Shown here: one piece after another, positions 33,661 through 61,918 of the stretch
How the letters are laid out: each line of letters starts with the position of its first letter
How positions within the stretch are numbered: position 1 is the stretch's first letter
NCBI GenBank assembly: GCA_963575745.1
Contig: CAUYUJ010000225.1
Coordinates: 868,001-932,000, forward strand
Direction: 5' to 3'
Length of the DNA stretch: 64,000 nucleotides
Source: Prorocentrum cordatum
Taxonomy: Eukaryota
Notes under the pieces: generated by a model
What the model saw: the letters and a program-made list of their open reading frames with translations, nothing else
The model's database searches: none
What the model was told of the DNA's origin: nothing
Translations under genes and position numbers: made by a program

Positions 33661-34442
33661 CTCGCAGCCACCCGCGATGGGCGGGGGGGGAGGCGAGGGG
33701 GAGGCGAGGGGGAGGCGAGGGGGCACGTCGGAGACGCTCGGAGGGGCCCAAGTCGACCCCCACGATTGGCCTAATAACATACAGCGTTCTACGCTCTGGT
33801 CCCACCCCAGGGCAAGGGATAGGCAAGGACTCGCCGCCCAAAAGAGATGGCATCGTTCGTGTGGGAAACGGTCGGTGCACCTCGTCACCGCGAAGGCCCT
33901 TCCCTACCATCATCCCCGCCCAATCGACTGGCATGTGCAATTGGGTTGGTATCCCAGGGCGAACGGGCACAAAGGCTCCATGGGACTCATGACCCACATG
34001 GCCCCGCCTCTCAACCAAATGTACAATGCCCGTGCCTGAAAGTATCAAGCGCGGAGCATGGCACCAGTGTCACGGGCGGAGCTGAACGACACGACTCCTG
34101 GCAAGGTGCCGAGGAGCAGAAACACGAGCGCAAGCAGCCAGCATGATTGTCACTGGTCGTAACGCCGTTCGTTTAACGAGCAGTTGACTGTAACAGTGTC
34201 TCCGCGGCGCAGGGCCGAGCACCAGGATACGGCACCCAGCAGAGCAATAAAACTGTACCCCGCCGCGGGGTGGAGGGGGAGGGGAGGAGGAAGGAGGAGG
34301 AGGGAGGAAAAGGAGGAGGAGGAGGAGGAGAAGGCGGGCATGTACTCGAGGAGCGACATAAGCAAAGCAACTATACGGAGCGATTTAAATATGATCGTAG
34401 CACATGAATGAGTGAATCTAAATATTTTCGGCACCACAACTT

Positions 34443-36459
34443 TCATCCGTCGTCGGTCCTCGCCCGCGACACGCAGGTGTCCAGGATGGTTTCCAGGCCG
34501 CGCCGCAGGAACGTGCTGCCCTGCGAGTGCGTGCCGAAGTAGCCAGAGCGCGCCGGCAGCGGGCGCGGGACGGGCGTGCAGGCGCGCGCCGCGGCCTCGC
34601 TGGCGGCCAGGAGCGCATGCGTTCGGCGCTCAGCCACCTCGCTGCTCACCCTCAGGATGTAGCCGCGCAGCTCCATGAGGCGCAGGACGGCCGAGCTGAG
34701 CGTGCCCAGGCTGCAGTACTGCGCGAAAAGGTGTTGGTGCCAAGTCCGAAGGGGGCAAGTCTCGTCCTCGACCCAGCAATGCGCCAGGAAGATGAGGGTA
34801 ACTAAAACGTTACCTATCTCGTTCGAAGTCATGTTGGGCCCTGTGGCCGCGTACGTGTCTGGGAAATCCGCCACCGTGACGTGTGCATGTTGAGGCGTGG
34901 AAGAATGCCAAGGGCTGTCTGGTAGGGCTCCTGTATCCTGATACGGGACGCCCCTCTCCTACTAGCATCTCTTTGCATGCACCGTCCCCCCTCCCGAGGC
35001 AACGATCCCTCGCACAAATAATTCCGCGCTCCCGCGGCCACGATCCCTGTCAAAAACGATGAACCCGCGTCCCGAGCTTCCAAGACGTCCCATGCAGGCA
35101 ACCAGCGACACCAAGATGGCCCCAGATTCCTCGAAGACGGCTGAATATGGCTTCAAGACAAGACGGCCCAAGATGCCTCCAAGAGGTCCCAAACGGGCTA
35201 CAAAAGAGGACCTCCAACATGATCCTCAGAAACTAAAAAATGATGTCGCTTTGGTGTTTGAATGATTTTCGCATTGTCGCATGTTCGGGCTTCCGCCAGC
35301 TCAAGACAGCCCAATACGGCCCAAGAGACCCCCAAGATGGCCCAAAAGTACTCACGATGGCCCAAGAGGCATCCAAGACGGCCCCAAGAGGGCCTCCCGT
35401 GGGACACCAAGACGGCCTTAGAAGGTCTTTCGACGGCCCAAGACAGCCTCACGACGGCCCCCAGGCACCCACCATACTGCCAAGAGGGCCCCAAGACTGC
35501 CCAAGAGAACCCCAAGACGGCGTAAGGCGGCTCCAAGACGGCCCAAGAGGACCCGAAGGGACTCCCAAGACGGCCGCACAGGAGGCCAAGACAGCCCCAA
35601 GACGTCCCAAATGAGTTCCATGAGAGCGCCTCAAATAGTGAAGACGTAAGGTGTCAAGTGTGACGGCGTTCCTCCTCTTCCCCCTGCTCCTGCTCCTCCT
35701 CCTCCTCCTCATCATCATCATAATCCTCGTAACCATCCTGATCATCATCATCATCAGCATCATCATCATGATCAGCATCATCATCATTATTATAATCATG
35801 GTCATCATCATCAGCAGCAGCATGATCATCATCAGCAGCATCATCACCATCATCATAATCACAATCATACTCACAATCATCAACACCATCATTAACATCA
35901 TCATCAGCATCATCATAATCATCAACATCCTCATCAGCACCACCATCATCATCAGCATCATCAGCATCGTCAGCATCATCATCATCAGTATCAGCATCAT
36001 CACCAGCATCATCGCCATGATCATCATCATCATCAGCAGCACCATCATCATCATCCTCGTCGTCATCATCATCCTCCTCGCCACAATCATCATCATCATC
36101 ATCGTCGTCATCATCCTCTGCATATCAAATTCATCATCATCACCATCATCAGCATCACCATCGTCGTCATCACCATCACCATCACCATCACCGTCACCAT
36201 CAACATATTCATAAACCTTACTCACCAGTGCCATCATCACGATCATCAGCAGCATCAACATCACCATCACCATCACCATCATCATCATCACCGCAATCAT
36301 AATCATCATCATAATCATCATCATCATCATCATCATCATCACAATAACCACAATCATCATCACCATCACCACAAGCATCAGCATCATCATCAGCATCATC
36401 ACGATCATCATCAGCATCATCATCATCATATTCATCTTCATCATCACCATCACCATCAC

Positions 36460-36510
<51 letters not shown>

Positions 36511-37256
36511 TATCATCAGCATCATCATCATCATCAACAACAACATCATGACGGCTCTCTCCTCCGACGAGTGACAACCCCAAATGCTGGGCTGCGACGG
36601 CAGCGGCATTGCCGCAGGCAGCTGGATAAATACTGGCGTGCGCGAGCATCAGGCAAATGTCCTCTTCAGAGTACTGGCAGGAACGCAGAAAACGCAGCGT
36701 GCGCAGCAGCAGCATCACGGACTCGCCCGACGCGTCGGCTGCCTTCGCCAACACCAGGAAGCAGTCCACCACGCCTGCGTCCTTGAGAAGCAACGATACG
36801 GGGGGACTGGCTCAGGAGGGGGGGGACATCGACCTGGAATCTGCGACACAATCGCCGATTGATCGGCGATCGGCCTCCGCTGGCGAATCCGCACGTTCCA
36901 GGGCGGGGTGGGGCTCTCAGACCCCTCTCGGCAATCCATGGGCGACGGGAGGTCGATGCCTTCCCCCCTGAGCCTGTCCCTCCCCGATCGTTGCCCCTGA
37001 AGTCCTGGGCCCGGCACGCGCGCCTGCTGCCGTTGGCGCGGCGTCCCGGCGCGAGGCTGCTCCGCAGCCCGCCCTGCGCCGCGCCGCCGCGCTCCGCGCC
37101 CAGCAGGCTGCTGCGGGCGGACAGCGAGCTGCCGGCGGGGCTGGGGACGCTGCGGCTGCAGGTGCCCACCGTGTTCGGCTCGGTGCTGAGGGTGATGACC
37201 GTGGAGCCGCCCTCGTCGGCTGCACGCAAGAGTGACCCGACTAGCCTCGACGACAT
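34443..37256 (-). CDS. Putative cyclin-like protein, three exons (37256-37005, 36781-36626, 34865-34443), ~276 aa
   Basis: Joined in frame it reads MSSRLVG...CRAQ|DAGVVDCFLVL...CQYSEEDICLMLAHASIY|FPDTY...EIGNVLVTLIFLAHCWVEDETCPLRTWHQHLFAQYCSLGTLSSAVLRLMELRGYILRVS...*. The LAHxxxxDxxxxxxxW and LxxxxLxLxxLxxYxLxVS spacing resembles the Pho80/cyclin-P-type cyclin box (inference, no search run). Intron 2 has non-canonical ends, so the copy may be a pseudogene. Confidence 0.65.
34866..36625 (-). other. Predicted intron 2 or insertion in the cyclin-like gene (1760 nt, non-canonical ends, AT duplication)
   Basis: Minus strand ATT T-AT [CCAGCTGCC...GGTGGCGG] AT-TTC CCA GAC. Removing the bracket plus one AT gives I-Y-F-P-D in frame. 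Contains CCAAGA repeats and a long (CAT)n at ~35710-36550. Confidence 0.55.
36782..37004 (-). mobile_element. Predicted intron 1 of the cyclin-like gene: GA-AG intron formed by a ~221-bp TIR element (introner-like)
   Basis: Minus strand CAG|GA CTTCAGGGGCAACGATC...GTATCGTTGCTTCTCAAG|GAC, with ~53-bp imperfect TIRs and a GA duplication; splicing keeps the frame (AQ|DAG). Confidence 0.8.
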
Positions 37257-37497
37257 GAACCTCAAAAGTGCGCTGCGCCATGTGTTAGTACTGCATATTT
37301 GATGTTCTGAGTACGGGTGGCCCTGCGTGCGAAATATTTACTGGCGCCCACGCTCCAACGTCGGTCGTCGCGGAACTTCGTAGTAGCGCTGGGCCACACA
37401 GCGTTTCGCCCTGCTCCGACATTGACGGGGGCGACCTTGAATGGGCGAAAGGGGGCGACATTGAAGTGGCGCGTCAACCACCTTTGAGATTAATTAT

Positions 37498-37675
37498 GTC
37501 GAGGGTTGTAGGCAAGAGTGACCATCGATGCGCGGCTTTGGGGGGTCGCAAGGTGGCCAAACCCAAGCACCCAGGCTACTGCAAATTATCGCCTCGCATT
37601 CAACGATCGGGGGACCCCAATCGGCCCGCACCAAAGATCACTCTGGCGAAGGGCCACCCTTACGGGTAGTCGACC
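37498..37675. mobile_element. Degenerate ~175-bp MITE-like element (paralogue of 55031-55199)
   Basis: Shares aagagtgacc..tgcgcggcttt..ggccaaacc..gggaccc..cccgcaccaaa..tcactc..gcgaa.gg.cac.cttacg..agtcga with the 55-kb copy. Confidence 0.6.
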
Positions 37676-38089
37676 TCGGCGCTGGGGGGCACGTCCGCAA
37701 GCCTGTAGGCCATCGCCTTCGGGGTGACGCTCCTCAGCCTTGGCCCCCGCGGACGGGGAGCTGCGGCGACGCCTGGTCGAGCATGCCGAAGGTGTCCGTC
37801 CTCGACGGCCCTGGCATCTGCTGCGGCCAGATGGCCGGCAGCGACGAGCCGCCTGTCACGGGACTTTTCCGCGTCCCCAGGCCCCCAACGTCGTGCTTCT
37901 TTTCATGACGTGGACCCTCAGCGGCCTGGACCCATTTCCCAGGACCAGTTGATCATCCCGAGTCGTTTCTTGATGGTCCCGAGGGCTGGCAAAGGCTCCC
38001 AAAGGTCGAAAATAGCCCAAAACCAGAATGTCATGGTTTGTGCATGACCTGGGGGGGTCTGGGTCTTCGCCCCTGAGATCCGACGTTGC

Positions 38090-38640
38090 GAAACATTATT
38101 CACCCACGAATCCAGACAGTAATTTAGAAACGCAAGGCATGGCTACGATTTCAAGACACCTGGTTGGGCGACAGGCAATTGCAATGCTCAAGGTATCGAT
38201 CGTAATGTACCGGGCCAAGGGTTGTGCTGTGCTGTGCCGTGCTATACTGAGATATGTTATGCCGCTATTGTGCTCTATAGTGTTGATCAAGTCTCCCGTG
38301 GCATCCGACTCCTGACCAAACTGATCTAGATCCCAAGCTTGAGCTGCCTGAGCGCATAGCTGGCCCAGAGCTGGCTGCAGTCGATACCGGTGGAAGCTCA
38401 ATCAGCTCGAGCTCAAGATCCGACTGAGCTCTGAGGAGGGACGAGACAACACGGAGCGCAAGGCGCATAGACGCGCCACGGAATGTGCCAGGAGCGCATT
38501 GGAGATGCGCCAGGGGACGTGCCAGGGGACGTGGCAAGGGACGCGCCACGGAACGGGCAGGGAAAGCGCCAGGGGACAAGCCAGGGAACGCGACAGAGGA
38601 CGAGCCAAGGGACGCGCCGAGGGGGAAGGGGCATACAGCG
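38090..38640. mobile_element. Old, diverged HINE-like copy
   Basis: aacattattcacccacgaatccag resembles the left end; a degraded internal unit follows. Confidence 0.55.
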
Positions 38641-42424: not shown

Positions 42425-42524
42425 NNNNNNNNNNNNNNNNNNNNNNNNNNNNNNNNNNNNNNNNNNNNNNNNNNNNNNNNNNNNNNNNNNNNNNNNNNNN
42501 NNNNNNNNNNNNNNNNNNNNNNNN
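42425..42524. other. Assembly gap (100 N) between (CAT)n and (CCT)n microsatellites
   Basis: Run of N; contiguity across it is not shown by the sequence. Confidence 1.
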
Positions 42525-44319
42525 CCTCCTCCTCCTCCTCCTCCTCCTCCTCCTCCTCGTCCTCCTCCTCCTCCTCCTCTTCCTGTTCCTCCTCCTCCCT
42601 GGTCCTCACTCCTCTTCCTGTTCCTCCTCCTCCCTGGTCCTCACTCCTCCTCACTCCTCCTCCTCCTCACTGGTCACTTCTTCCTGCTCCTCCTCCTCAC
42701 TCCCCACTCCCCGTCCTCCCTCTCCTCGTCCCCCTTCTTGGCCCTTGCCGCGGCTGATGCTGCGCCGACTGGCGACCCGCTGGCTGGGGGAAATCGACGA
42801 CCTCTTAGATGGTTCAATATAGACCAAGGAGGAGGAGGAGGAGGAGGAGGAGGAGGAGGGGGAGGAGGAGGAGGAGGAGGAGGGAGGAGGAGGAGGAGGA
42901 GGAGGTAGGAGGGGGAGGGAGGAGGAAGGAGGAGGAGGAGGAGGAGGAGGAGGAGGAGGGGGGAGGGGGAGGAGGAGGGGGATCCCCCTCCTCCAATATT
43001 GCTCAACGTGGCTTCCAGAATGCCCGAGGAAGCCCCAAGACGGATCCACCACGGGCCCGAGTGGCCACGGGGCGTCCCCGGGAGGCCCCCCAGCAGGGCA
43101 ACACTCTTCAAACACGTAAGGGCATGCATCCTCCTCCTCCTCCTTCTCCTCCTCCTCCTCCTCCTCCTCCTGCCTTCTCTCGTATTCGTGCCCGACTGGC
43201 TGCTGAGCTTTGAAGGTGGCCCCAAGATTGCCCAGGAGGGCCCTCAGAGACGCCCAAGATGCCCACGAGTGCGGCCCCTTGAGCGCCCAAGAACCCCCAA
43301 TAGCGCCTCAAGGGCCCCCAAGACCCGACACTGGTGGAACCTGAGGGGTGCGCCTACTTAAGTCCCGCCCCCCGTTGGACAGACGGAAAAACAACAAGCA
43401 ACAAACGGGCGCTGAGCATATTTTTTCTGGGGTCATGTTTGGGGAAACTGTTTCCCCAAGCGGTCTCCAATATAGCCCCAGATGCTTGAGGGTTGCCTCC
43501 AGGTTGGCGCTATGTGGCCCGAATTGCTCAAGATGGCCTCGATGATGTCTGCAAGGAGACCCCACGATGGGATGGCCCACGAGATGGGCCCAAGTGGCCA
43601 CGGAGAATCCCAAGCAGGCCGGAAAAAGGGCCAAAGGACAGCAATCGAGGGGCAGTGCAAGATTGCCCCAAAATGGCCCCAAGAGGTCCTCGAGAGATCC
43701 AAGAAGCCTCGCGACGCTCCCAAGAGGCGCCCAAGAAGCCCGAAGAGGCCCCAAGGAGCCCGCTAGAGGCCACCAACCGGCCCCCAAGAGCCCCAGGGCA
43801 TACTAGAGGCACCCAAGACGCCCCAAGAGGCCCCCCCGGCCGCCGAGAGAATCCCCAGGCGCCCCGAGAAGGTCCAAGCCGCGCCTGAGAGGTATCCCAA
43901 GATACTCCGAGAGACATCCGGGAGGCCTCTGGCCCTTCTGCTCGCTCTCTTGCCCCTCTTCCCCATCATCTGCATTTTCCTCCTCCTACTCCCTCCTCCA
44001 TCAATCATGCCACCCACTTTCGAATGAAAGCGGTTGCCCCCCTCTTTGCTCAAGGGCTCCCAACTTCGCGCTTCGCGCGAAGCGCGAATAACCTCGCGCT
44101 CTCGCGCCCCCACCCAAAGGGAGGAAAGGAGGACGAGGAGGAGAGGGAGAAAGAACGAGGACCGCGAAGCGCGAATAACTTCGCGCCCTCGAGGGCGCCC
44201 TTGTTTGCTCCTACATGTCTCTGACCACCTAGCGCACCTGGGCATCGCTTTCGGACGGGCTGGCGGCATGCTCGACCGTGCGACCCCCCCCCTGGCCGCC
44301 CTCGAGCCCCCAGAGGGCC

Positions 44320-45350: not shown

Positions 45351-46541
45351 GCGGCCGTCGCGCCCCCCGGAACCGCCTGGCCCCCGTTGGGCGAGATTCC
45401 TCGAGGAACTTCGATGCCCAGGAATCGCTCCACCGAGGGTGGGAGTGGGAGACTGGGTTCGCTGCTTCTCTGCAGAGGCAACCCCGAAGGGCCGACGGGG
45501 AAGCGTATGCTTCTGTACAAGAGGACAGAGCATCGCAGGCGCGGGAGAAGCCAGTCCAAGCAGGCATTTGTTCGCCTCGGCCTTAGGGCGGCGCATGAAC
45601 GCAGCTCAGAAGACGCTCCAGAAGTTGAGCGCAGCCAGTAAGCGGGAACGCGCGGCGAAGGATCTGCGGGCCGTCGCGCGGGAAATGCGCAGCGGCGCGT
45701 CCGCTTTGAGTCGCGCCCACGACGACGGCAGCCCATGGGCCGCGACGACGGCGGCCACAGAGCCTCTGGAGGGACCAGTGCGGCCTCGGATGCCCTGGTT
45801 GTTGGAGCAAACAGTGACAGCTTGGAGGCAGCACTTCGATGACGAGCAGATTGCGTACATGCTGCAGCCGACGAAAAATCAACGCAGGGGCGAGGGGACA
45901 CGGGAGGATGGCGAGCCCCCTCCTCCTCCTCCTCCTCTCCTCCTCCTCCTCCGCCTCCCGTTTCCTCTTCCTCTCCTCTTTCCTCCTCCTCCTCCTCTCC
46001 TCCTCCTCCTCTTCCCCCCCCACCTCCCCTCCTCCTCCTCCCTCCTCTCCTCCCTCCTCCTCCTCCTCCTCCTTCCTCATCCTCCTCCGCCTCCCCTCCT
46101 CCCCTCCTTCCTCCTCCTCCTCCTCCTCCTCCTCCTCCTTTTCCTCCTCCTCTCTCCTCCTCCTCCTCCTCCTCCTCTCCTCCGTCCTCCTCCTCCTCCT
46201 CACCCCTCTGTTTCCTATCCATCCTCCTCGTTCCTCACCCCTTTTTCTTCCTTCCCTGAAGGCCCCCCCCCCCCCCCTTCCCTCCCCACCCTTCCTTCCT
46301 GAAGAGGGGGGGGGGGCTGCGAGGAGGATGAGGACGTGGAGGAGGAGGAGGAGGAGGAGGAGGAGGAGGAGGAGGAGGAGGACGAGGAGGAGGAGAAGGA
46401 GGAGGAGGAGGAGGAGGAGGAGGAGGAGGAGGAGGAGAAGGAGGAAGAGGGGGGGGAAGAGGGAAGGAGGGAAGGAGAGAGGGCAGGAGGAGGAGGAGGA
46501 GCGAACGTCGCCTGAGAGGGCGCGTCTGTCTGTGAGCCGCG

Positions 46542-49500
46542 CTACGGCGCGCCGGCCCCGCCCGACAGATCAGCGGGCAGCGCCAGTGCACGGCGAGCGG
46601 CTGCAACGGCGGTCGTCTGCTTGCTGTAGGTCATTGGGACGTCGTGGTCCTTCGTGAGGTGGTAAGTCCTGCTAGCCACGGAGAACCTGGCGATGCTGTT
46701 CGGGATGCCGTTCTCGCCATGGAACGGCTCGGTCAGCTCGGGGAGGCCGAGCCTCGTCATGTTGGTGCTCAGCTGGCCGCGCGGGAAGCTCAGCTGGTGC
46801 CACGTCCGTTCACATACTAAGTAGTGCTGGATGTTGTCGTCGGCGTGCAGGCACCCGAAGTGGCACGGGCGCTGGGTCGGGATCACGTGCGTCCTGTGCG
46901 AAGTCGTCCACGCGCCCGTGAGGACCTTGAAGGCGCTCCACAGCCTGGAGGGCGGCATGGTCGCGAGGTGGGTGCGGAGGCGCATCCACCGAGCGGGGAG
47001 ATCATCAGGAACTTGCTGGACTTGATGGGGATCACGATGTGAGTCAGCGTCGGCAGGTGGGTCTTCGGTGCCCATGTCGTCGTCGTCGCGGCGAATGTCG
47101 TCAGGGTCGGCGTCGGGCTCCAGCAGAGGCAGGATGTGAGCAATCCAGCGGCGTCCGGCACGGTGTTGGGCGGCCTCGTGGCTGAGCAACGAGGTGCGAC
47201 TGCGTGGCGATCGGCTGCGTGGCGACTCGCCCTGGGCTTCTGGGCGGGCCAGGCGGCGCTCCAGGAGAATGCGTCCAGGGCCGCCCACGCTTGATTGCAC
47301 ATGTCGACAGCGATGCGGCGTCGTTGGGTGTGGGTGGTGTACAACGGCTGGAACAGGTCGGTGCTGAGTAGCTCGTACAAGGAGGTGACGCACCACGGCC
47401 TCCAGTCCTCTTGGCGGTTGATGCGTCGGTCGTTCGTCGGGCGGTCAGGCAGCCAGTGCGCGGACCACGAGCGCGCCCTGTTCAGAAGGCGCTCTTGGGC
47501 TCGTTCAGCTTCACGTCGCGGTCCAGATGGCGGTCATCGTGTAAGTTGGCGGGCAGGGTCCAGCGTAGGATACCACGCGATGAGGCGGCGCTTGACGGTG
47601 CCAGGCATGGTGTCGACGTAGAGCTGCTCGTCCAGCGACTTCATGTAGGCTTTCTGCGGCGCATCTTGGCAGTATTGCGGTGTTGATGGCGATCGCGTTG
47701 TTGAGATAGGCGAGAGGCGTGGCGTTGAAGGATGGCTATCCTGCTCTCGCGGTGCGCTTGTGGATGGCGATCACGGCGGCTCGCGCGCGGGGCCAGGGCC
47801 CAGCCGTGCGCGTCAGGCGCTCGAGACGTGATCCTTCGCAGTCGGCGAAGAAGGTGGAGTGGATGACGCCCTCGAAGCGCTGGACGATGGCGGTCTTGAT
47901 CTCCCAGCAGTCGTTGCACCGCGCGGCTTGCAGTGCAGTGGTGACGGGAAGCTGGTCGCATGCGGTGTCGCAAAGTTCGCGATGTGCGCGTCTCCACTCT
48001 GTCACAGTGGTAGACGCCGTTCTCAAGAGAGTGGCGGCCAGGTAGTTCTCGATGCCAATGGGGGCCTCCACGTTCGTCCAGAGCGACATCGCGAGGACGT
48101 CGGACGTGGCGAAGCTGGAGGGGGCGACGCGCAGCAGCCTGTTGATGGCCTGCAGCTCCTTCTGCAGGACGCCCTCGGGCGGTTCGAAGAGCTGGGCGAC
48201 GTAGCCCAGGCGCGTGGCAGCGGCGACGTTGTACAGCTTGATGCTTTGCTGGATGGGGGCGCGCGAGGCAGCGAGCTTCTCCGCGCGATCCCACCACTTC
48301 ACTGCGGGGCCACGCCATTGGTCAGCAAGCGTGGCGCCTGGGCCCACGTAGATGCCAAGGTAGCGGGCTTTGGACTCAATCTTGAAGTTGAACCATGGGG
48401 CGTGAGCAGCCGCGAGGACGCGTCGCATCTCGGCTACGAGGTCTTGCGATGGGAGGGCCCAAATCGGGACGACGACGCACTTCTTGGCCTGGAGCTGGAG
48501 GCCTGCTAGGGTCGCGGCTGCGATCATGCGGGGGCGAGCGCGCTGATGTCGGCCAGCCCGGCGAGAATGATGCCGAGGTCGTCGACGCCGGTGTTGATGA
48601 GCCCGCGGTGGATGGCGTTGAGCTCGCGGCTGATGGCGACGATGACGGGGTCGAAGGCGAGCGGCCAGATCGCGCCGCTTAAGGGCCACCCCTGAGCAAC
48701 GCCCGACGCAGCGATCAGGAGTCGGCGACGTTCTCCCCCCAAATCGAGAAACTAGGCGGGCCAGAAGTAGCATGCCTGGATCAAGCGCATCACGCGGCCG
48801 CGGATGCCCCAGCGCCCGAGAACGTTCCACATCCACTGGTGGCCGGGGCCGGGGAATGCGGCTGCGATATCCATGGTGACGAAGACGGGCATGTCGGAGG
48901 ATGCGGATGGGGAAAGGCTGTGTCGACGCGCGGTGGCGTCCACGATGACGACGTTGTTCAAAAACTGGCGGCCGTTGACGAAGCCCTGCTGCTCGGGGGG
49001 CGTCTGGGCTGCAAGGGCGCGGGGCTGGCGGTTGGCAGCGGGCGCCAGCAGCTTCGCGTCCGAGCTCTTCATTGCAAGCGGGCAAAGGCAATCAGGGAAG
49101 CGCGTGCACTCCGCATTGCCAGATGGCTCGTCGCCTGTCGGCAACATGGCCATGAGAGAGAAGTTCAGGTCGTGCGGGATGTTGTGAATGGCAGCGATGT
49201 CGTAGCATGCGTCAGCGAGGGAGTCGAAGCTGTCGGGAGCGCGGAGCCAAGCTCGGTATGGAAGTCCGCCAGGGCCAGGGGCTGAATCCCCAGCGAGGCG
49301 CGCTGCTTTCTCAAGCGCCTGCCCATCGGGGAGTGATAATTCTGCTCGCTGGCGCCGGGGGAATACAGAGTCGAGGTAGTCGGTGAGACGCTTCTCGCCC
49401 GCGTGCTTCTCGGCGAACACAAGGGCCCAGTGACGCATGACGGCCTGGTGCATGGCGGCAGGGTCTGTCACTACGTTGGACGAGTTGCCGACAGCGATCT

Positions 49501-50940
49501 TGATGCCAGTCAGCACGAGGCGCTTGGAAAACAGCTTCCGGAGTTCACCGCGGTAGCCTTCTCGCGTGGGGCGCTGGCGCTACTTCTGGCCGAGGGGAAC
49601 GTTGTTGGCGGCAATGGCAGCTCGCGAGCGGGCAGCTGAGAGTGCTTTGCGCTCATCGCTGAGGCTGGCGTGCGTGGTGTCAGCAGTCGTGGTAAACAAT
49701 GCCATGTCGTTGATGCTGACCGTGTTGCCGTCGATCTTCAGGTGAGGGTGCCCGATCTCGGCGTTCTCGATCAGCATCTTCGCGAGAGGGACATTCTGGC
49801 ACCAGACTGCAAGGGCGATGCTGCGCAACGCAATGGCGCGAGTCTCCTTGGAGGCGCTCGCAGTCTGGGACTTCAGCTCGGACTTCAGTCTTGGCGAGCG
49901 CATCGCGCGCCCGGGCGGCTGCGACTTGCACCGCGACCTTGAAAGCGCGCCATCTAACAATCGGAGTGAGCGGCGTCACGTCGATGGTGGCGAGGATCTT
50001 TTCGATGATGCTTGTAGTGATCCGCGTCGGCGATGTAGGCGGGGACGCCACGCTCGGCGGCTGGCTTGGCTTGCGGCGGCGGACGCGGAGGCGCGTGATC
50101 TTGCGGTCGCTAATCGGGCCCCTGGCGTTCTCGAGGGGGGCGTCGTCGGCGACGTAAATGGCCCCCATGGGAGGCGCGAGGTGGCTCGGCAGGTTGATCA
50201 AGCAGCGGTCGATCGTTGATTCACTCATGTTGCCCGCGGCTCTGCGCGTCGTAGACGTGGAGGTGATCTCGATCATGTCGCGAAACAGCGAGCGCCAAAA
50301 GACAGGATGGCACTGGTATCTCTGCGCAGCGGTGGTGTCGGAGTCGACGGGGGCATTGAATGACTTCCGGGGGAACTCGGACACGTTGAAGTCACGCACG
50401 ACCATGAAGAGGCGGCGTTGAGGCTGTTCGTCAGCATGCTGCCGAAGTACTTGCCATTGGTCGCGGAGGTGGGGACGGTCGGCTGGCGAGAAGCCGTAGT
50501 TGTGGACGTTGAGGATGGTGCCTTCGCACTGGAGGCTGGCATCCGTGACGCGCAGCCAAGCGGCGCGGCCGTGGATGACGACCTCGAACCTGGTATGAGG
50601 CCGTTGTTCAGGTGGTAGCTGTTGCTCTCTCTCTTGTCGCACGGGACGAGGAAGCCGATGCCGCCGGCGTTGGCAACGGGCACATCGTTGGCGATCGCGG
50701 GCGAGTGGAACGGTTTGCACGGGTGCTGGGTCGAATTGGCTAGGAGAATGAGGTCGCCAAGGGATCCATGCGTTTCTTGAACAGCGAGAAGAGCGCGTTG
50801 GCAAAGGCAAGTGGAAGCACGCGACGTTTGTCTTCGCGGCGCTGGTCAGATTGCCCCAGGGGAGCTCGGGTTTTCCAGAAAGCAACGTTGAGGCCGTCCT
50901 GAGAAGGCTGCAGGAGCCACGGGCTCCAGCGGTGGCTAAA
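46542..50940 (-). pseudogene. Element A ORF2: APE endonuclease + reverse transcriptase + C-terminal CCHC; several frameshifts and stops
   Basis: APE: AFWKTRA, GGIGFLV, LNVHNYG, VRDFNV, STIDRCL, ISDRK. RT: SAPGPGGLPY, QQGFVNGRQF, MDIAAAFP, GVAQGWPLSG, GVDDLG, RYLGIYVG. C-terminal CHFGC..DNIQHYLVC; stop TAG at 46542-46544. Confidence 0.9.
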
Positions 50941-51975
50941 GTCACTGCGCAGCCGCGAGGGCGTCCGCGAAGTTGGAGGCGAACTCGGCGTTGATCTGTC
51001 GCTGCTCGTCGTCGGTGAAGCCGCGGTCCATGGCAGCGTTGGACCACTGGATCCCGGTGGGTTCGTCAGCATGGGCGCCGATGAGCAATCGAACAAGAGC
51101 GGCCCCACGATTAGCAATGTAGCCAAGAGTTCTGTGCGCGCGGAGGTCGGCGTCGGGGATGGCGTTCTGCATGATTTTGGCGAGGCGTTTGAGTTGCACT
51201 TCTGTGCGGACGGCTTTCGGGCTTTTGCCTGCTGAAACAAATAGAGGGATATGCACACCATTGCCCAGAGTGATAGTAAAACTGCGCCATTCTTGTTTCC
51301 GTTGCGTAGAGCACTGTGAAGACGCTGAGCACGTGGTTCTGCCACGACGATGCCGCCGCTGACCTGGGACGAGTGACGCTTGGCGGGGCTGGCGGTGTTG
51401 AAGATGACAATGTCTTTGGTGATTTCGGCTTTGGCAAACCATTCTGCGAGGGCGCGCTCGAGCTCGGGCTGGTTGAACTCCTGTGGGCTGCTGCGCCCGA
51501 ACGTTGTGGGGTCGGGGTCCCTGTCCCGCGTGCCAAGGCCCTCGAGGTTGAGCGCGGGTGCCCGTGCTTCTGCGGCTGTGACGATGGCTTCAAGCTTTGC
51601 GACGCTGGTTCTGAGTTCGACATTCTGCTTCTCGAAGTCGTTGGTGCGCTGCGTGACGCTGTGGATGCTGCGCTCCGTGGCTTCGTGACGTTGGTTGAGC
51701 TCGGACGTGATCTTCGTGATGGACGAGAGGAAGTCTTGGCTGGCTTGTGCTGTGACAGCACGTGCTGTGGCTTCGAACTTGGCGCTGGCGTCGGCGATTT
51801 GGGCGGCCATGGTCTCCTCCAGCTGCTTGTGAACGTGAGCGGCTAGGTCATGCACTGCGAGCTTCGCTGCACCGTCATGCCATGGATCTTGTTGACGTTT
51901 GCCACAGTCGAGATCCTGTCCGTTGGGGAGGAAAGCGAGTGGTCCTGCCGCTTGTGGAAAAGCGTGCGTTCCCAT
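50936..51975 (-). pseudogene. Element A ORF1 (coiled coil + L1-ORF1p-like domain), frameshift near 51300
   Basis: Heptad-rich segment ELNQRHEATERSIHSVTQRTNDFEKQNVELRTSVAKLE and C-terminal LFVSAGKS..RTEVQLKRL align with element B ORF1 (LFISPDKN..RREVQCKKL). Start uncertain (ATG 51975 or 52152). Premature TGA at 50942-50944, just before CTT TAG. Confidence 0.75.
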
Positions 51976-52152
51976 GGAAATACAATGGCCCACGCCAGCC
52001 ACCCAATATCGCGCGTGAAGGCTGCTGCAGGCGATTGTAGAGCCGAATATGAAGCTCAACCAGCAGGGCAGCTGGAAGGCGTGGCGTGGGAAATGGGTCC
52101 TTAGCTGTCCCTGGACCAAGGGTCTCCGTGCTCTGCCACGGGGCGAAGTCAT

Positions 52153-52174
52153 CTTGAGCCAAAATGGCTACGAA
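52153..52174 (-). other. Genomic copy of the dinoflagellate spliced leader (21/22 match) at the 5' end of element A
   Basis: Minus strand TTCGTAGCCATTTTGGCTCAAG vs DCCGTAGCCATTTTGGCTCAAG; abuts the TSD. Confidence 0.93.
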
Positions 52175-55030
52175 AGGGCAGGAGGAGGAGGAGGAGGGGG
52201 AAGAGGAGGAGGAGGAGGAGGAGGAGGAGGAGGAGGAGGAGGAGGAGGAGGGGAGGAGGGAGGAGAGGAGGGCGGGAGGGAGGAGAGGGGAGGGGAGGGG
52301 AGGGGAGGGGGGAGGGAGGGAGGGGTGATGGAGGGAGGATGGAGAGAAGGAGGGAGGGGGGGGACGAGGAGGGACGAGGATAGGGGGAGGTAGAGGGACA
52401 ATGACCTCGAGATGTGCCACTTCTCGCCGTTGGGGGGGGCTGCAGGGCTGGTTCAACTGGTTCGCCGCCCAGGCCTCGTTCCAACGGGCTTCCGTCGGGA
52501 TCCGCGAGCCGCACGGATCGTTCAGGCCGCAGGACTCGTTTCACAGGGGTCCCGCAAAGTTCGTTCTACAAAGAGGCCCCAGGCCTCGTTCCATTGGGTG
52601 CCCGTCAAGGCAGGGGGCTGCGGGGCTCGTTCCACGGGGGGGCTCGTTCCACAGGGGGACCGGAAGGCTGGGCCCACCGTTGTTCCTGTCTGGGTCCACG
52701 AGCTTCAGGGCACGTTCCACAGAGGCCACAGGGCTTGTTCCATAGGGGTGGGCTGGTTCCACAGAAGGGCCCCCAGGCATGTTCCACTGGCCTCGTGAGG
52801 CCCGCGAGCGCCAACGCTGTTTCGCAAAAGGCCGCGAGGCTCGCTCCACGACGGGGCTCACCGATGGCCGCGGAGGTCGCTTCACTGAGGCTCCAGGGCG
52901 CTCGGCCGCGAGGCTCGTTCCACTGGGGTCGGAGGTCCGCAGAGACCTCCGTGGACTCGAGCGAGTGGCTCTTCGGCTCGCTCCACAGGGACTCTTCTCG
53001 GGGGCCGTGGGTCTCGTGGGGGGCCGGCGAGGCCACGCGAACTCCTGCCGAAGCATGCGGGCCACCGCGGAAGGCCTTGTGAGCATCGTTCGTGAACGGT
53101 CTGGAGAGGATGCTCTTTCGGTCGCGTCCGCGAGCGAGGAGCGCAGGCGGAGACAGAAGCTGTCCGGGGCACGGAAGCAAACCTAATTAGCTGCAGGGCG
53201 CAGAACAGGCCGGCCGGGCCAGGTCGCACAGCGGCCGCTGGGGCCTGGAGAGGATGCGCGCAGCGTCAAGAACTCAACATGGCAACGTCCTGTTTGAACT
53301 CGTCGAGCGTGAGTTTCTTTAAACGCCGCAGCAGCTGGAGTGCGAGCCCAACCCACAATCGGACGAGCAGTGGAGGTATCATGTCGCCTGTGCCCATATA
53401 ACTACGGTTACCCCGCTGTTCCAAAGTGTTCTCCAAGATGGTTCAAGACAGCTCGATCTTATCCTGATCTTGTTCTTTAACCGCTGCGGCTCGCCCCCCC
53501 TTCCACATTCTCCAGCAATGGCCTGCGCCACTTGAACAGAAGGAAACACAATTGAAAATTCATCCTCCTACGCTCTCTCACCATCACTATTTCCCCCCCC
53601 CCGTTCTCCTCTGCATCTGCCCTCCGCGTGCACCAGAGAGCCGATAAGCCAATGCACCAATATGCCGCTCAAGCATATCGGCGCGAAGGAACCAATAAAC
53701 CGATACGCCAATATTTCAATATGCTGTTCACGCCTATCCACTCCAACCTACTCACTCCCCCTCCTCCTCCCCCCCTCCTCCTGCTCCTCCTTCTCCGCAA
53801 CTTCAGCACATGGGTCAGTGTACCAATGTGCCGCTCGAACCTATCCGCGCGAACAAACCAACAAGCCGATACACCGATCTACTAATGTGCCGTTCAAGCG
53901 TATCCCCTCCATATCCCCTCCCTTTCCAGAACGGGACCGGTACGCCGATGCGCCGATATTCCGATATGCCGATATGCCGATACGCAGATCGCGGCAGTCA
54001 GCGCCCTGGCACCAATATGCCGATAAGCTACTAATGCGCTGTTCAAGCCTACCCCCTCCATATCCCCTCCCTTCCCTGAACGGGACCGGTGCGCCGATAC
54101 GCCGATATGATACACCGATATACCGATATGCCGATATGCCGATACACCGATCGCGGCAGTGAGCGCCCTGGCACCAATAGGCCGATAAGCCGATATGCCA
54201 CATTGCACGAAATCTGCATATAGGCATATCGGCGCAACGGCGCCGATACATCGAATCGGCACATCGGCATATCGGCTCGGCGACGCCAAAATGCGAAATC
54301 GGCACGTTGGTGTATCGGCTCCGCTGCGCCGAAAAGGTACACGGGTGCATCGGCGTATCGGCTCAGCAGCAGGGGCGGTTGCTCCATGCGGCCACCCTCC
54401 GCTCTCCTCTGGAGGGCACGCGCGAAGCGCCTTTGGAATATACAAACGTGACTGCACCTCGTTGTTTTATCGAGCGGAAATCTGCACGCCCTGCGCGAAC
54501 TTGGTTGCAGGGGGGACCTCGTGAACTACGAGAGGAACCCTGAGCCCAAGCCCTCTGCAGGGAAAATGGCGGCATCGCGGAAAATCACGATCGGCCCCCA
54601 AACCCACCTGCTCTGCAACATGAGTCGTTCGGGATCGCGCTGTGATGGTCCTGGGGCCCGCCGACATCGGCACCCCGCCCCCAGGAGATCAGCGACGTGC
54701 AAGGACGGGCGCCAGCAGCCCCGCTGGGCGCACGCCTCTGGCCTCCAGTGGGATGGAAGAAGGTGGAGCTCGGAATCGTGGAGGCGCTGAAGGTCGTGCC
54801 CTAGGCCCTGGTGGCGGAGGTCATGGACAGGCCCGCAAAACTACGTGCATAACTTTAACCGAAGAAAGGTGTAAACTAATGCGCTTCGCCGTCGGAGGCG
54901 CCTGCCCCAGGGCGGCTGGAAAATTTATACCCTGACGTGCCACCCTATAGGGATGCAAACTCTCTAGCCGCCCCTGGACGGGCGCCCCCGGATACGGAAC
55001 AGTTTATCTCGTACCGTTCGCCCGCTAGTG

Positions 55031-55199
55031 TTGACCCTGGGTAAGAGTGACCTTTGGTGCGCGGCTTTTTGGAGGGCGCGGGGGGCCAAACCTGGGTGCG
55101 CAAGCCGCTGCTCCTGCTTCGTGTTCAGCCATCTAGGGACCCATCTGCGCCCGCACCAAAATCTCACTCCAGCGAAAGGTCACTCTTACGCCAAGTCGA
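55031..55199. mobile_element. ~170-bp MITE-like element
   Basis: Perfect 15-bp inverted repeat gtaagagtgaccttt (55041-55055) / aaaggtcactcttac (55175-55189); paralogue at ~37500. Confidence 0.65.
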
Positions 55200-56788
55200 T
55201 CGTAAGTACGCGGCTCGCAAGACTGCCCGGTGTGAAACATGATCGACCCACGAACCAGGAAAGGAATATAGAAATGTAACGCATGGCAGCGTTTTCAAAG
55301 ACACCTGATTGGGTGACGGGCACATGCAATGCTGAGTGTATCGATCTTGATGTACCCTGCCGAGGGCTGTGCTGTGCTGCGCCGTGCTGAATTGCGATGT
55401 GCCATGCCGCGATTGTGCTCTGTATATAGCGTCGTGGATCGAGTCCTCCTTTGCATCCGAGTCCTGACCGAACTGATCTGGATCTTAAGCTCGAGCTGCC
55501 TGAACACATAGTAGCTGCCCCAGAGCTAATTGACAAGGGGACGTGCCAGGAGGACGCGCCGCGAAACGTCTCAAGGGACGCGCCAGGCGACGTGCCAGGG
55601 GACGTGCCATGGGGTCGCACCGCGGGACGTGCCAAGGAGACGCGCTACGGAACGTGCCAATGGATGTGCCACGGGATGTGCCAGGGGACGCGCCACGCGA
55701 CGTGCGAGGGGGACTCGCCAAGGGACGCCCCACGGAACGTGCCAAGGAACGTGCCAAATTGCAATGCTGAGTGTATCGATCTTGATGTACCCTGCCGAGG
55801 GCTGTGCTGTGCTGCGCCCTGCTGAATTGCGACGTGCCACGCCGAGATTGTGCTCTATAGCGTCGTGGATCGAGTCCTCCTTTGCATCCGAGTCCTGACC
55901 GAACTGATATGGATCTTAAGCTCGAGCTGCCTGAATACATAGTAGCTGCCCCAGAGCTAATTGACAAAAGGACGTGCCAGGAGGACGCGCCGCGGAACGT
56001 CTCAATGGACGCGCCAGGCGACGTGCCAGGGGACGTGCCATGGGGACGCACCGCGGGACGTGCCAAGGGGACGCGCTACGGAACGTGCTGGGGACAAGCG
56101 TTTCGCTCGAGACATCCTGTCAAAGTTCTCATGCTAGACATCCGCCTGAACGACCTGGACACGAGAAAACAAACGCTTCGCTCAACACATCCTCAACACA
56201 TTCTCATGCTAGACATCCGCCTGGGCGACCTGGACACGTGAAAACAAGTGGTTCGCTCGAGACATCATCAACACACCTTCATGTGAAACGTCCGCCTGGG
56301 TGACGTGGGCACGTGAAAACAAGCGTTTCGCTCGAGACGTTTTCAACACCTCCGCATTCTAGACATCCGCCTGGGCGACCTGTACACGTGAAAGCAAACG
56401 TATCGCTCGAGACATCATCAACGCATCCTCTTGTTAGAGATCCGCCTGGGCGACCTGGACACGTGAAACCAAGACACGTGGAAACAAGCGTATCTCTCGA
56501 GACATTCTCAACACATCCTCATGCTAGGCATCCGCCTGGGCAACCTGGACACGCGCGAACAAGCGTCTCGCTCGAGACTTCCTCAACACATCTTCATGCT
56601 AGACATCCGCCTGGGCGACGAAGGCGCGTGAAACCACGCGTCTCGCTGGAGACGTCCTCAACAAATCCTGGCGCTAGACCTCTGCCAGGGCAACCTGGAG
56701 GCGTGAAACCAAGCGTCTCGCTCGAGACATCCTCAATACCTGGGCACGTCGCTCGTACAAATGGGCGCCACAAGGGTCTCGAGAGAGC

Positions 56789-59700
56789 CTACAGCGCACG
56801 AGGTGCATCGACGAGCGCCATCGCTGCCAGTCGAATGTGAAAGGGGATACGTGCTCATCCCAACCTCCGCTGGGCGAGACCGAACACGCATGGAATTGTA
56901 ACAAGGAGAAGCAAGAACCATCGACCCCACTTGCACGATGGTCGGCGCCCCGTCCAGCCCGAGTCTGGCCGCGACGCTCTCCGAAGCGCCCGCAAGACCA
57001 GCGACGCTCCGCGACCAAAGAATAGGGCATCGAAGGTAATGAGCGAAGGTGTCGCGCTGATGCGCGCACCCGCACTCGACAAGACAGTCACTCATACCCG
57101 CATGGACGCGCAGCCTCGCGGAGGTGAGCCAGCCCCCACAAAGAATCTTTACAACCGCCGACTGCCACGCGGGAGAGAGGGGCTCCAGCAGGGCTCAGAG
57201 CGGAGGCCATGGGGTCCCTCGGATGAGGGGCCAATCACGTCTGGAGCCGCCCCTCGATGGCGAGGTGGAAAGAATCGGGAAAAAGAGCAGCACGGAGCGA
57301 GGAGGCAAGAACACGCTGAAGCTTGAATCGCGAGTGACTGGCGACGGCGGCGGCGCGAGCCTCATTCACTTTTAGACGTGCCTGCGTCGCAGGACCATGC
57401 AGCACACTGTCCACTGGCTGCGCCCCAGGTGGTGGGCGGCGGGCGAAGTCGTGAGCGGCCCTGTCCAGCTACTGAACCGTGGGCCGCAGCTTCCAGAACG
57501 GCGGAGATAGCCACCCCCGTCCAACGTCGAGCAGCGAGCCGTGGGAGCACGCCTCTTCTTGTAACCATCCAATAAGGAATCGCCAGTTAGTCACCGTTTC
57601 CTCCGCCGACCTCATTCATGAGTATAGCCGTGCCACGCGGCATCATAGACATGGGGCGGATGTGCGACCAGTTGGCTAGCGAGAAGATGTCGGCACGAGA
57701 CAAACATTGCGGCGGCAGATGCCACACCTTATGCAGCGCTCAAGACTCCCGCGCCAATGAGACCTTAGGCGTAGGATACTGTTGTTGTAAATGCCCCATG
57801 ACTGGCAACACGTACATGTTATAGATGTCAGTGGCTGTGGACACTGGAGCACCCGACTTGGCGAGCTCCAGCACACGCAACGACCACTTCGCAGCCACCT
57901 TGCGCCAGATACTGCGCTCGTCCGCCGCGGGGCCCACCTGCGCACCCAAGTATCCCCCAGAGTCAGCGATCTTCATGGACGCCCATGGAGGCACGTGCTC
58001 CATAAGCCATTGACGAGTCTCCTTTTCCATCACCGAAGAAAATTCACCCTCAAGCGGAATGATGACGCACTTGCGAAATTTGAGCCCGAGGCCCCCGAGG
58101 GCGTCTGCAGCACGGAAGACACGAAACATATCCTTCAAAAGAGAACGGCGTTGCAGCGTCGCCCCAACATCGTCGGCACAAACACCGACCGCCGAGCGGC
58201 CACATGAGTGAAGCAGAACCTGCATCGCCTGCACGAAAGGGTTCATCGCGATAGCCCAGAGCGCCCCACTGGATGGGCACCCCTGAGCCCAGCAAAAAGA
58301 AATGCACAAGACGTGCTGCTGCAAGCCAGCGGCCTGCACGCATGCCGTCGGCAACCATTGCAGCGAGGCGAGCAACGCGAAGATGCCATCCTCAACCCCC
58401 GCGCGCGAGAGCGACTTGAGAAGCCAGTCGTTCTCCAGGGACGGAAAGGCGCCCCCAAAGTCGTGCAACGCCATAACAGGATGCGCATCTTTACGCTGGA
58501 AGCCACATGCCCCCGCAACTGTGTCCAACAATGTGATATTGTTAAGAAAGTTTCTGCCGACCAGGAAGCCCCTCTGAGCCGCGGGAGAGGTCGCCGCCGC
58601 CGTCCGTGTGAGCTTCATGTTGAAAGCACTCGCCACAAGTTTACAATCAGATTTTTTCAGCGCCAACGCTCTCGTAGTAGATGCCGACCTGAAGGCCCCA
58701 GCGGCGTCGCCCGGGTCCTCCCCCCCCTTTGGTAAGAAAGCCATGAGATGCTCATTCCAGTCCGTCGGCGGTGGAAGACCAGCAGCCAGCTCGACGGCGA
58801 TCTCCTCCAGCGACTGCATGCCCAATGACGACCTGCGCCACGCCTCATACGGTAACCCGTCGGGCCCAGGAGCCGATGGCCGAGCACGACGAGCCGCCTC
58901 CATAAGTCGAGCAGCCGCCGGGGGGAGCACCTCGGAGAAATCAAACTGGGTGCCAAACTTCTCAAGATACTTATCCGAAAGCTGCGCCCAGTTGGAGCAC
59001 CTCGGCTTGTGCTGAAACACGGGGCCCCAGTGGCGACGCAGCTCTGTGACCATGTCTTTCTGCGAGTCCACCACTTCACCATCGCCAGGGAGACGGATAC
59101 CTTGAAGCTTGAGCGCCCGAGCAAAGGGAGTCCACAGCGATGCCCTCCTGCGCAGGGCACGACGTTGTGCATTAATGAATGAGAAGGAAGCTGCATCGGG
59201 TTTAGCACGAGCCTCACGCTGTGCGAGCGCCGCCTCCCGCTCCTCTGAGAAGGCCTGCTGCTCGAGAGTGACAGCACGAGCAAAAGCGATGGTGTCACGT
59301 AGCTCCACTAAGTCCCCAACCACACACACATGCTCGCGAGCAAGAGCCGATGAAGACAGGAGACGCCTCGCAAGTCGCGAATCATCTCTCCACACCGCAC
59401 GAGCCATAGAGCGAAAGACCATTAGTCTCGCTTCCGTCGACTGAGGGTTGCGAACCAATCGAGAACGCACCATCCGAGCGGCCTCCTTCATTATATTCTC
59501 AGTGACCCTCCGCTTGGACGCCGAGGTGAGAGAGTGCCAGTCCACTTCCGACGCCATATTCTTGATGAGCCGAGCATAGTCGGGATCCTGAAAGATAAAC
59601 GATGGAATACGCTGAGTGTCTGGACGCGGCGCCGGCCGCGGCGCCAGAGTAAGCAAGACAGGGGAGTGATCGCTGATGCCCTTCTCGAAGAGAAACCCGG

Positions 59701-60505
59701 GAAAGTCTGGAGTAGAGACCGACATAGTCCATTGAATGGCTTCCCAGCTCTGAGACGATACAAAGACACGGTCAATGTGCGTCAACTTCGGTTGTTGCCC
59801 CTCCTGCGCGACGTAGCGGGTGGGCATCTCATTGTCCACTTCGAGGAGCAAAGCAAATATACGTTTCCATTCAGCTTCAGCCACATGCGGCGCAACGTCC
59901 GAGACAGGCCTGCGACGGTCGATCTCGGGAGCGCGCGGATACATAGGCAGAGCAGCGTAGATATTGAAGTCCCCCAAGAAAATGATAGAAATCCTGTCGG
60001 GCGCCGCGTTTGCGGGCGCCGCGTCTCGAGCGACCCTCTGCCGAAGCGATTGCACCTGTTGTCTCGATATGTTATAATTGTGAACATTGTAAATAACCGT
60101 GGACGCCACAGGACAAGAGTCGTGACTGAAACTAGAAATGCGAAGCCTCTGAATCCTTCCTGGCACCAGCTCCTCATGCCAGAACCTTGCCCGCTGATGG
60201 GCTCCACTCTGAGAACATGGAATGATAATCGACACACCACCAGTATGTCGCTGCGTGCCAACAGAAGAGAAAGCAATATGTAGGATGTGGAGCTTGAACA
60301 TGTCCTGCTGAAGCTCCACCTCCGTAGCGCGGACCTCTTACAGTGCCATGATCGTGCCCCTCGAGAGAAACTGAGACAAGTACTTAATGGTGTGCTGACG
60401 TGTGTGCAGGTCGTGATGCAACAAAGCTCGAGTGTTCCACGTTGCGAACGAAAGCGGGGCCTTCAGCTCACTGGGCGCCTTCCACGGGGCAAAGCGGCGG
60501 CTAAA
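56789..60505 (-). pseudogene. Element B ORF2: APE endonuclease + reverse transcriptase + CCHC; nonsense codons at 60338-60340 and 57740-57742 plus distal frameshifts
   Basis: ATWNTRAL, IMAL*EV (probable LQE with CAA>TAA), GGVSII, YNVHNY, LGDFNI, THIDRVF, ISDHSPV; SAPGPDGLPY, QRGFLVGRNF, HDFGGAFPS, AQGCPSSG, VCADDVG, GYLGAQVG; CLVECGC..DTFAHYLRC. Probable stop TAG at 56789-56791. Confidence 0.92.
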
Positions 60506-61715: not shown

Positions 61716-61882
61716 GACTGCGGGTACAGGGTGCACAGGGAACGAGACGTGACTGACAAGTCAGGAGGCGCTGGCCTCAGCACAGTCGTTAGATATGAGA
61801 TAGCAGCTACGCCCGTGAGAGGCGCACGTGAGATACCGTGGGCCGCGCCTCCCACGGACAAGTCTGAGCGAAACACTTCGGA

Positions 61883-61918
61883 CTTGAGCCAAAATGGCTT
61901 GAGCCAAAATGGCTACGG
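61883..61918 (-). other. Tandem DinoSL (61898-61918) + relict SL (61883-61897) at the 5' end of element B
   Basis: Minus strand CCGTAGCCATTTTGGCTCAAG-CCATTTTGGCTCAAG, exact matches; abuts the TSD. Confidence 0.97.

What the first reader, a model, noticed from the sequence alone, without database searches (positions are those of the whole stretch)
36782..37004. Intron 1 of the cyclin-like gene is a TIR element: GA donor from the TSD, AG acceptor from the TIR
Seen: the 5' arm cttcaggggcaacgatcggggagggacaggctcaggggggaaggcatcgacct matches the reverse complement of the 3' arm cttgagaagcaacgatacggggggactggctcaggaggg..gacatcgacct, and the element is flanked by GA...GA. Removing GA plus the element restores CAG GAC in frame. 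Established: introner elements create introns this way, and dinoflagellates tolerate GA donors. Inference: 2-bp TSD insertions are one route to the GA-AG introns of this lineage.
Basis: partly seen in the sequence, partly recalled or inferred. Interest (0 to 1): 0.7.

Follow-up and report, generated by a model that had tools for sequence, protein, structure and literature searches.

The report
Transposon-made intron in algal cyclin gene
A small hairpin-shaped mobile element sits inside a cyclin-like gene of a dinoflagellate-type alga and is cut out of the message exactly as an intron, an ordinary example of a way of making introns already described in these algae.

Summary
Mostly confirmed, and ordinary. 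36782-37004 (minus strand) has 53/54-nt inverted arms (44 of 52 aligned bases; fold z -6.1). Assembled contigs from 2 of 4 runs laid lack exactly these 223 nt. Of six equivalent cuts only GA..AG is a dinoflagellate splice pair. It is phase 0, before an Asp found in 28 of 34 relatives. The protein family has a cyclin fold.

Two corrections. It is not intron 1: a 463-nt GT-AG intron with inverted ends lies upstream. The 2-bp duplication is not shown: the boundary repeat is 5 nt (AGGAC), and 2-bp and 4-bp readings both keep the arms in register. The GA donor comes from the target copy in both readings; the AG comes wholly from the arm only in the 2-bp reading.

Other copies are only hinted at by diverged partial RNA matches; no genome was held. 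The 2-bp/GA/carried-AG route already has a tentative published precedent (Symbiodinium KB8 fam3, PMC12130899 Dataset S2). This scan noted similar introners elsewhere in this genome, none resembling this one by sequence.

Odder: the next intron (34866-36625) has no GT/GC/GA..AG cut.

The parts
36782..37004 (-). 223-nt phase-0 intron, GA..AG, made of a TIR element plus one copy of the target duplication
   Evidence: joint 36778->37002 skipping 223 nt in X2 and X7 contigs; six equivalent cuts, only this one GA..AG
36950..37002 (-). 5' inverted arm, 53 nt (starts at 37001 if the duplication is 4 bp)
36782..36835 (-). 3' inverted arm, 54 nt, ending in the acceptor AG
37002..37006 (-). upstream copy of the 5-nt boundary repeat AGGAC; the donor GA is 37004-37003
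   Evidence: ('both' = 5)
36779..36783 (-). downstream copy of the boundary repeat; exonic GAC (Asp codon) at 36781-36779
   Evidence: Asp in 28 of 34 relatives
36851..36870 (.). internal 20-nt near-palindrome of the element (18 of 20)
   Evidence: self-BLAST; stem
37005..37211 (-). exon upstream of the intron, 207 nt
   Evidence: X2 and X7 pieces 37002-37210
36626..36781 (-). exon downstream of the intron, 156 nt, start of the conserved cyclin-fold region
   Evidence: pieces start at 36626 in X2, X7, X18 and loose ends at 36626 in X23; alignment
37212..37674 (-). preceding intron, 463 nt, GT..AG, with 24-nt imperfect inverted ends (18 of 24) and a 3- or 5-nt boundary duplication
   Evidence: joint in 4 of 4 runs
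37675..37852 (-). further upstream exon; 5' edge inferred from an AG at 37854-37853
   Evidence: pieces 37674-37855 in X2, X7, X18
34866..36625 (-). following intron, 1760 nt, with a CAT-repeat core; possible cuts only CC..AT, TC..GA, AT..GG
   Evidence: loose ends at 36626 in X23 (3 reads) and X18 match the start of the last exon
34443..34865 (-). last coding exon with stop codon
   Evidence: 369 relatives at E up to 0.001

Best explanation
A non-autonomous cut-and-paste (MITE-like) element of about 220 nt inserted into coding sequence at CAG|GAC, just before a conserved Asp codon, and duplicated a few target bases.

Steps:
- Element with terminal inverted arms: shown.
- Exact removal from the mRNA: shown in 2 of 4 runs.
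- Cut at GA..AG: inferred, as the only one of six equivalent cuts that dinoflagellate spliceosomes are known to use.
- Donor GA supplied by the upstream target copy: inferred; true for a 2-bp (GA) or a 4-bp (GGAC) duplication.
- Acceptor AG from the arm tip (2-bp reading) or from the element's last A plus a target G (4-bp reading): unresolved.
- Mobilisation by a transposase in trans: inferred from established MITE and introner biology.

Intron length equals element plus one duplication, so the protein is restored without a scar. My odds on the duplication length within this model: 2 bp about 0.5, 4 bp about 0.35, longer or off-register about 0.15.
For: Arms far above chance and flush with the intron ends. 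Exact 223-nt skip in contigs of two studies. No row of 34 relatives lacks residues at the junction except those that start later; Asp145 is in 28 of 34, and 2 of 34 carry an insert there. Partial, diverged matches inside the element in 3 of 4 runs suggest other copies: 4 of 4 X23 reads differ at 36842, 3 reads leave the element at 36850 into other sequence, and an X2 contig matches 36852-36915 with 9 differences. Same architecture as published dinoflagellate introners, where GA donors are enriched in young introns (preprint 10.1101/2020.10.14.339549).
Against: No second full copy and no empty site were seen: no genome held, none in the window (only the two arms match exactly, 4 matches against 2.99 expected), none in metagenome or viral scans, none in the scan's notes. 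Arms are only about 80% alike, so the insertion is not fresh. No raw read crossed the junction in X23. The kind of X2 and X7 is not on record; RNA is inferred because they lack both introns. The partial matches could partly be unspliced RNA of another allele; 41 loose-end rows and 41 piece rows were not shown.
Confidence: 0.82

Rival explanations
1. Same element, but a 4-bp duplication (GGAC): the element runs TT..AA, the donor is target positions 2-3, and the acceptor is the element's last A plus the target's first G. This is a sub-case of the best explanation that contradicts the first reader's title.
For: Perfect 4-nt repeat with arms in register, 12 of 16 tip bases. 4-nt duplications are the length named for Symbiodinium and for P. 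glacialis classes 4, 5, 13 and 14, and splice sites spanning the element/TSD boundary are described for classes 9, 12 and 13.
Against: Needs the outer G and C of the target to be complementary by chance, which makes the apparent CTT/AAG tip. The 2-bp reading has the longer perfect tip (3 against 2 bases).
Confidence: 0.28
2. Both splice sites come from a longer duplication (AGGA or AGGAC; P. glacialis class 14 or 12 type), and the arms are slightly asymmetric at the tips.
For: The boundary repeat is 5 nt and perfect; AGGH-type duplications are described.
Against: Puts the arms 1-2 nt out of register: 3-4 of 16 tip bases ungapped against 12-13. The upstream AG is also explained by the usual exon end.
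Confidence: 0.1
3. An older intron whose sequence was later replaced or filled by a foldback repeat; the short boundary repeat only reflects the AG|G..AG|G habit of dinoflagellate splice sites.
For: Conserved exonic bases at the splice sites and AGG acceptors are general in dinoflagellates. No empty site was seen.
Against: The arm runs to the last base of the intron and starts at base 3, leaving no room for older intron sequence.
Confidence: 0.07
4. The skip is a reverse-transcriptase jump across a strong hairpin between short direct repeats, not splicing.
For: Very stable hairpin and a 5-nt repeat; such artefacts are in print (PMC2923612, search listing only). No raw junction read in X23.
Against: No contig holds the unspliced form (depth 0 at 36780-36834 in X2, X7, X18); exon depth is flat across the joint; retention breaks the frame; one cut is a standard dinoflagellate pair.
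Confidence: 0.03

Closest known systems
Symbiodinium sp. KB8 introner fam3 (Gozashti et al. 2025, PMC12130899, Dataset S2; row read)
   Different: About 120 nt against 221; hAT-like end hits; the authors themselves query the 2-bp call. Sequence was not compared.
Introner-like elements of Symbiodinium and P. glacialis classes 4/5 (Roy et al., bioRxiv 10.1101/2020.10.14.339549; parts 1-3 of 4 read, figures not held)
   Same: Inverted repeat ending at the 3' splice site, donor from the direct repeat, GA donors enriched among young introns, phase 0.
   Different: Those have a 4-nt GHNN duplication and CT at +5/+6. Here CT is at +3/+4 and the +1..+4 tetramer differs by one base (GACT/GACG, 2 of 16 tip bases), so it is not that class.
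Introner elements of Prorocentrum cordatum (Dougan et al. 2023, PMC10666404; passages and supplement passages)
   Same: GC-rich dinoflagellate with 23.8% GA donors and inverted-repeat introns in 2.4% of introns. The scan's notes name this species for the genome; I did not test that.
   Different: That survey only pattern-matched 8-20 nt inverted and 3-5 nt direct repeats; no families or TSD classes appear in the passages read.
Amoebophrya introner elements / non-canonical introns (Farhat et al. 2021, PMC7789003; passages)
   Same: Hairpin-forming introns with inverted and short direct repeats at the boundaries; closest match for the neighbouring intron 34866-36625.
   Different: The target intron has a usable GA..AG cut and much longer arms.

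Membership tests
Introner (TIR/MITE type) | Element spans the intron from boundary to boundary and is spliced out exactly | tested here: met
   (2 of 4 runs)
Introner (TIR/MITE type) | Terminal inverted repeats | tested here: met
   44 of 52 aligned bases; 0 of 1000 and 0 of 200 shuffles
Introner (TIR/MITE type) | Target site duplication of defined length that varies between insertions | tested here: inconclusive
   2 and 4 bp both in register; one copy only
Introner (TIR/MITE type) | Several sequence-similar introns at non-homologous positions | tested here: inconclusive
   partial diverged matches in 3 of 4 runs; no full copy; no genome
Introner (TIR/MITE type) | Intron absent from orthologues (recent gain) | not testable with these tools
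   relatives are held as proteins without DNA
Introner (TIR/MITE type) | Cognate autonomous transposase element | not testable with these tools
   no genome held
Symbiodinium / P. glacialis class 4-5 ILE | 4-nt GHNN duplication at intron +1..+4 with CT at +5/+6 | tested here: not met
   +5/+6 are TC; that reading gives 2 of 16 tip bases
P. glacialis class 12/14 ILE | AGGH or NAGGH duplication giving both splice sites, arms in register inside it | tested here: inconclusive
   AGGA and AGGAC repeats exist but the arms fall 1-2 nt out of register
Amoebophrya-type non-canonical introner | No usable standard splice pair | tested here: not met
   GA..AG cut exists for the target; the feature is met by the neighbour 34866-36625
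Cyclin fold (host gene) | Cyclin-box helical fold | tested here: met
   model of relative P0003 from a 100-row alignment, pLDDT 81.7; ranks 1-19 of 48,161 chains are cyclins or cyclin-like CDK activators, Z 10.7-8.1, rmsd 2.6-4.9 over 104-139 residues. Z is middling for a helical protein; Foldseek E only 0.2
Cyclin fold (host gene) | Pfam cyclin domain by sequence; CDK binding | tested here: inconclusive
   no cyclin family in 3 exon pieces or 20 relatives; PDB profile search found no cyclin; binding not tested

The most novel reading that the evidence does not exclude
All three RNA-supported introns of this gene derive from inverted-repeat elements, and their removal is positioned by pairing of the intron tips rather than by end dinucleotides. 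GA..AG at the target is then incidental. The neighbouring 1760-nt intron (only CC..AT, TC..GA or AT..GG possible, 2-nt AT repeat, 10-bp paired tips) would be removed by the same structure-guided route in a free-living dinoflagellate, with 2-bp-duplicating families feeding both canonical and non-canonical introns.
Probability: 0.15. Interest if true: 0.7.

Novelty: new member of a known kind. Interest (0 to 1): 0.2.

Why it matters
On its own it is one more RNA-supported dinoflagellate introner. If a family shows a true 2-bp duplication, it would firm up a route to GA-AG introns that is so far a queried row in a supplement, and it would point to a transposase class other than those with 3-8 nt duplications. 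The neighbouring intron without standard ends matters more: gene finders cannot model it, and it bears on how dinoflagellate spliceosomes choose boundaries.

Tried and rejected
Searches that found nothing useful:
- Whole genome: none held.
- Other copies in the window: none beyond chance.
- Metagenome scan with a both-arm pattern: 0. A 20-nt inner pattern gave 11 loci, all with only 20-32 nt of likeness; taken as chance.
- Viral contigs: 0.
- Translated element as a protein query: 1 candidate, none scored.
- Last exon against longer proteins in the word-indexed database: 0 of 896 candidates; the exhaustive search then found 369.
- Rfam over 34400-38300: 5 sub-threshold snoRNA matches, all in the CAT array, none in the element.
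- Scan notes by sequence for the element and for both neighbouring introns: 0 windows each.
- Supplement files 3 and 7 of PMC12130899 were the wrong datasets. In file 8 I saw 35 of 78 Polarella rows and one part of the Symbiodinium rows; 'Prorocentrum' occurs 0 times.

Readings rejected:
- A micro-exon rescuing standard ends for the downstream intron: motif absent from the window.
- 'Intron 1'.
- The Symbiodinium 4-nt GHNN+CT class.

Of 24 listed runs only 4 were laid; the small-share runs are no evidence. The preprint's figures and supplements, which may give TSD lengths for classes not stated in the text read, were not seen.

Full report
Setting. The window is repeat-rich eukaryote-type DNA (GC mostly 0.54-0.62) with one host gene on the minus strand near 34.4-37.9 kb. 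No whole genome is held. The scan's notes call the genome Prorocentrum cordatum; I did not test this, though the published GC of 59.7% fits (PMC10666404, passage).

The observation. Between exon end CAG (37005) and GAC (36781) lie 223 nt beginning GA and ending AG. The arms 36950-37002 and 36782-36835 align with 44 identities, 8 mismatches and 3 gap positions. The local score is 64, against at most 44 in 1000 shuffles, and the RNA folds at -123 kcal/mol, z -6.09. Removal keeps the frame; retention shifts it.

RNA. Of 24 runs listed, none held half of the words of 36600-37300, which fits exon-only sequence. I laid 4 on 36560-38200. Contigs of X2 and X7, two studies, skip exactly 223 nt. X23 raw reads (about 12 in 100 read) and X18 did not cover this joint. 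The kind of X2 and X7 is not on record; I infer RNA because they lack both introns. Five letters fit either side, giving six equivalent cuts: TT..AC, CT..GA, AC..GG, GA..AG, GG..AA, AG..CA. Only GA..AG is a known dinoflagellate pair, so the cut itself is inferred.

Intron number. An upstream exon (37675-~37852) is joined through a 463-nt GT..AG intron in 4 of 4 runs, one of them by a single raw read. The target is therefore at least the second intron, probably the third.

Host protein. The last exon has 369 relatives. Among the 34 of the top 40 that are 150 aa or longer, the Asp just after the junction is in 28, and 2 rows carry an insert there. So the exonic GAC is most likely target sequence older than the insertion. 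Pfam names no cyclin. A model of relative P0003 (pLDDT 81.7) gives cyclins or cyclin-like CDK activators at ranks 1-19 of 48,161 chains, Z 10.7-8.1, with weak Foldseek support (E 0.2). 'Cyclin-like' is fair as a fold statement.

Target duplication. The boundary repeat is AGGAC, not just GA. Tip identity over 16 nt for each reading: GA 13, GGAC 12, a 6-nt repeat with one mismatch 11, AGGA 3, AGGAC 4, GACT/GACG 2. Every reading gives the same mRNA, so RNA cannot decide. The donor GA lies in the target copy in all perfect readings that fit. The acceptor is wholly from the arm only at 2 bp; at 4 bp it is element A plus target G. Published practice calls TSDs from families of at least 15 (PMC9860276, methods passage).

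Other copies. None in the window, metagenomes, viral contigs, protein space or the scan's notes. In one search, 3 of 4 runs show partial depth inside the element: 4 of 4 X23 reads differ at 36842, 3 reads leave at 36850 into other sequence (agreement 0.75), and an X2 contig matches 64 nt with 9 differences. This hints at a family but shows no second intron; some reads could be an unspliced allele, and 41 rows of two tables were not shown.

Mechanism. Most likely (0.82) a MITE-like element inserted at a proto-splice site AG|GAC. The upstream target copy supplied a GA donor tolerated by this lineage, the element end supplied all or half of the AG, and intron = element + one duplication leaves no scar. 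The hairpin may help by bringing the ends together (inference). Rivals: 4-bp geometry (sub-case, 0.28), longer off-register duplication (0.1), older intron overwritten (0.07), reverse-transcriptase jump (0.03).

What is known. Roy et al. (preprint 10.1101/2020.10.14.339549; parts 1-3 of 4; figures not held) describe this architecture with 3-, 4-, 5- and 8-nt duplications and report GA donors as typical of young introns. Dataset S2 of PMC12130899 lists Symbiodinium KB8 fam3 with a queried 2-bp TSD, GA in 7 of 9, donor co-opted and acceptor carried; CCMP2456 fam3 has an automated 2-bp call. PMC10666404 reports 23.8% GA donors and introner-like ends in 2.4% of introns. PMC7789003 and the review PMC11282704 were read as passages. 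The scan has noted several similar introners on other pieces of this genome (unchecked notes).

Neighbours. The upstream intron also has inverted ends (18 of 24; 30-nt tip duplex beaten by 4 of 1000 random pairs) and a 3- or 5-nt duplication. The downstream intron 34866-36625 is odd. Loose ends at 36626 in X23 (3 reads) and X18 continue into the last exon, X2 and X7 pieces also stop at 36626, and relatives read Tyr 34 of 34, Phe 32 of 34 without a gap. Yet its only cuts are CC..AT, TC..GA and AT..GG, and no micro-exon motif was found. Its tips pair weakly (12-nt duplex matched by 15 of 1000 random pairs, not significant at 20 or 30 nt). The last exon lay outside the laid stretch, so this junction rests on loose ends; an assembly error or another allele is not excluded. 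Two paper searches listed no paper whose title concerns non-canonical introns in Prorocentrum; I did not read the listed papers for this.

Verdict. A real, RNA-supported TIR-element intron; a new member of a known kind; 2-bp duplication unproven and already foreshadowed in print. Interest 0.2.

Noticed in passing
window 34866-36625 (-): 1760-nt intron whose RNA-implied junction allows only CC..AT, TC..GA or AT..GG; 2-nt AT boundary repeat, 10-bp imperfect tip pairing, CAT-repeat core. Candidate non-canonical intron; assembly error or allele not excluded.
   Followed up: partly
window 37212-37674 (-): 463-nt GT-AG intron with 24-nt inverted ends and GAG or CGAGG duplication, like P. glacialis class 12 geometry; joint in 4 of 4 runs.
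   Followed up: partly
window 37590-37677: The 5' end of that intron is matched by many diverged contigs in all four runs (summed depth up to 1165 in X2): a common transcribed repeat; related sequence near 55040-55200.
   Followed up: no
A GC-rich minus-strand stretch with an ATG at about 62855-63050 is an untested candidate.
   Followed up: no
window 37034 and 37153: X7 contig has a 3-nt in-frame insertion and one substitution in the exon relative to the window: strain or allele difference.
   Followed up: no
window ~46500-52200 and ~57400-61930 (-): Two non-LTR retrotransposon-like elements (endonuclease/reverse-transcriptase-type reading frames judged by eye); the second ends in a tandem 16-nt repeat that also occurs once near 52158.
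   Followed up: no
window 42426-42525: 100-N scaffold gap between a CAT array and a CCT array, upstream of the gene.
   Followed up: no
P0001-P0150: Large protein family with no Pfam name but a cyclin fold nearest cyclin Y, cyclin A/B and Pho80.
   Followed up: partly
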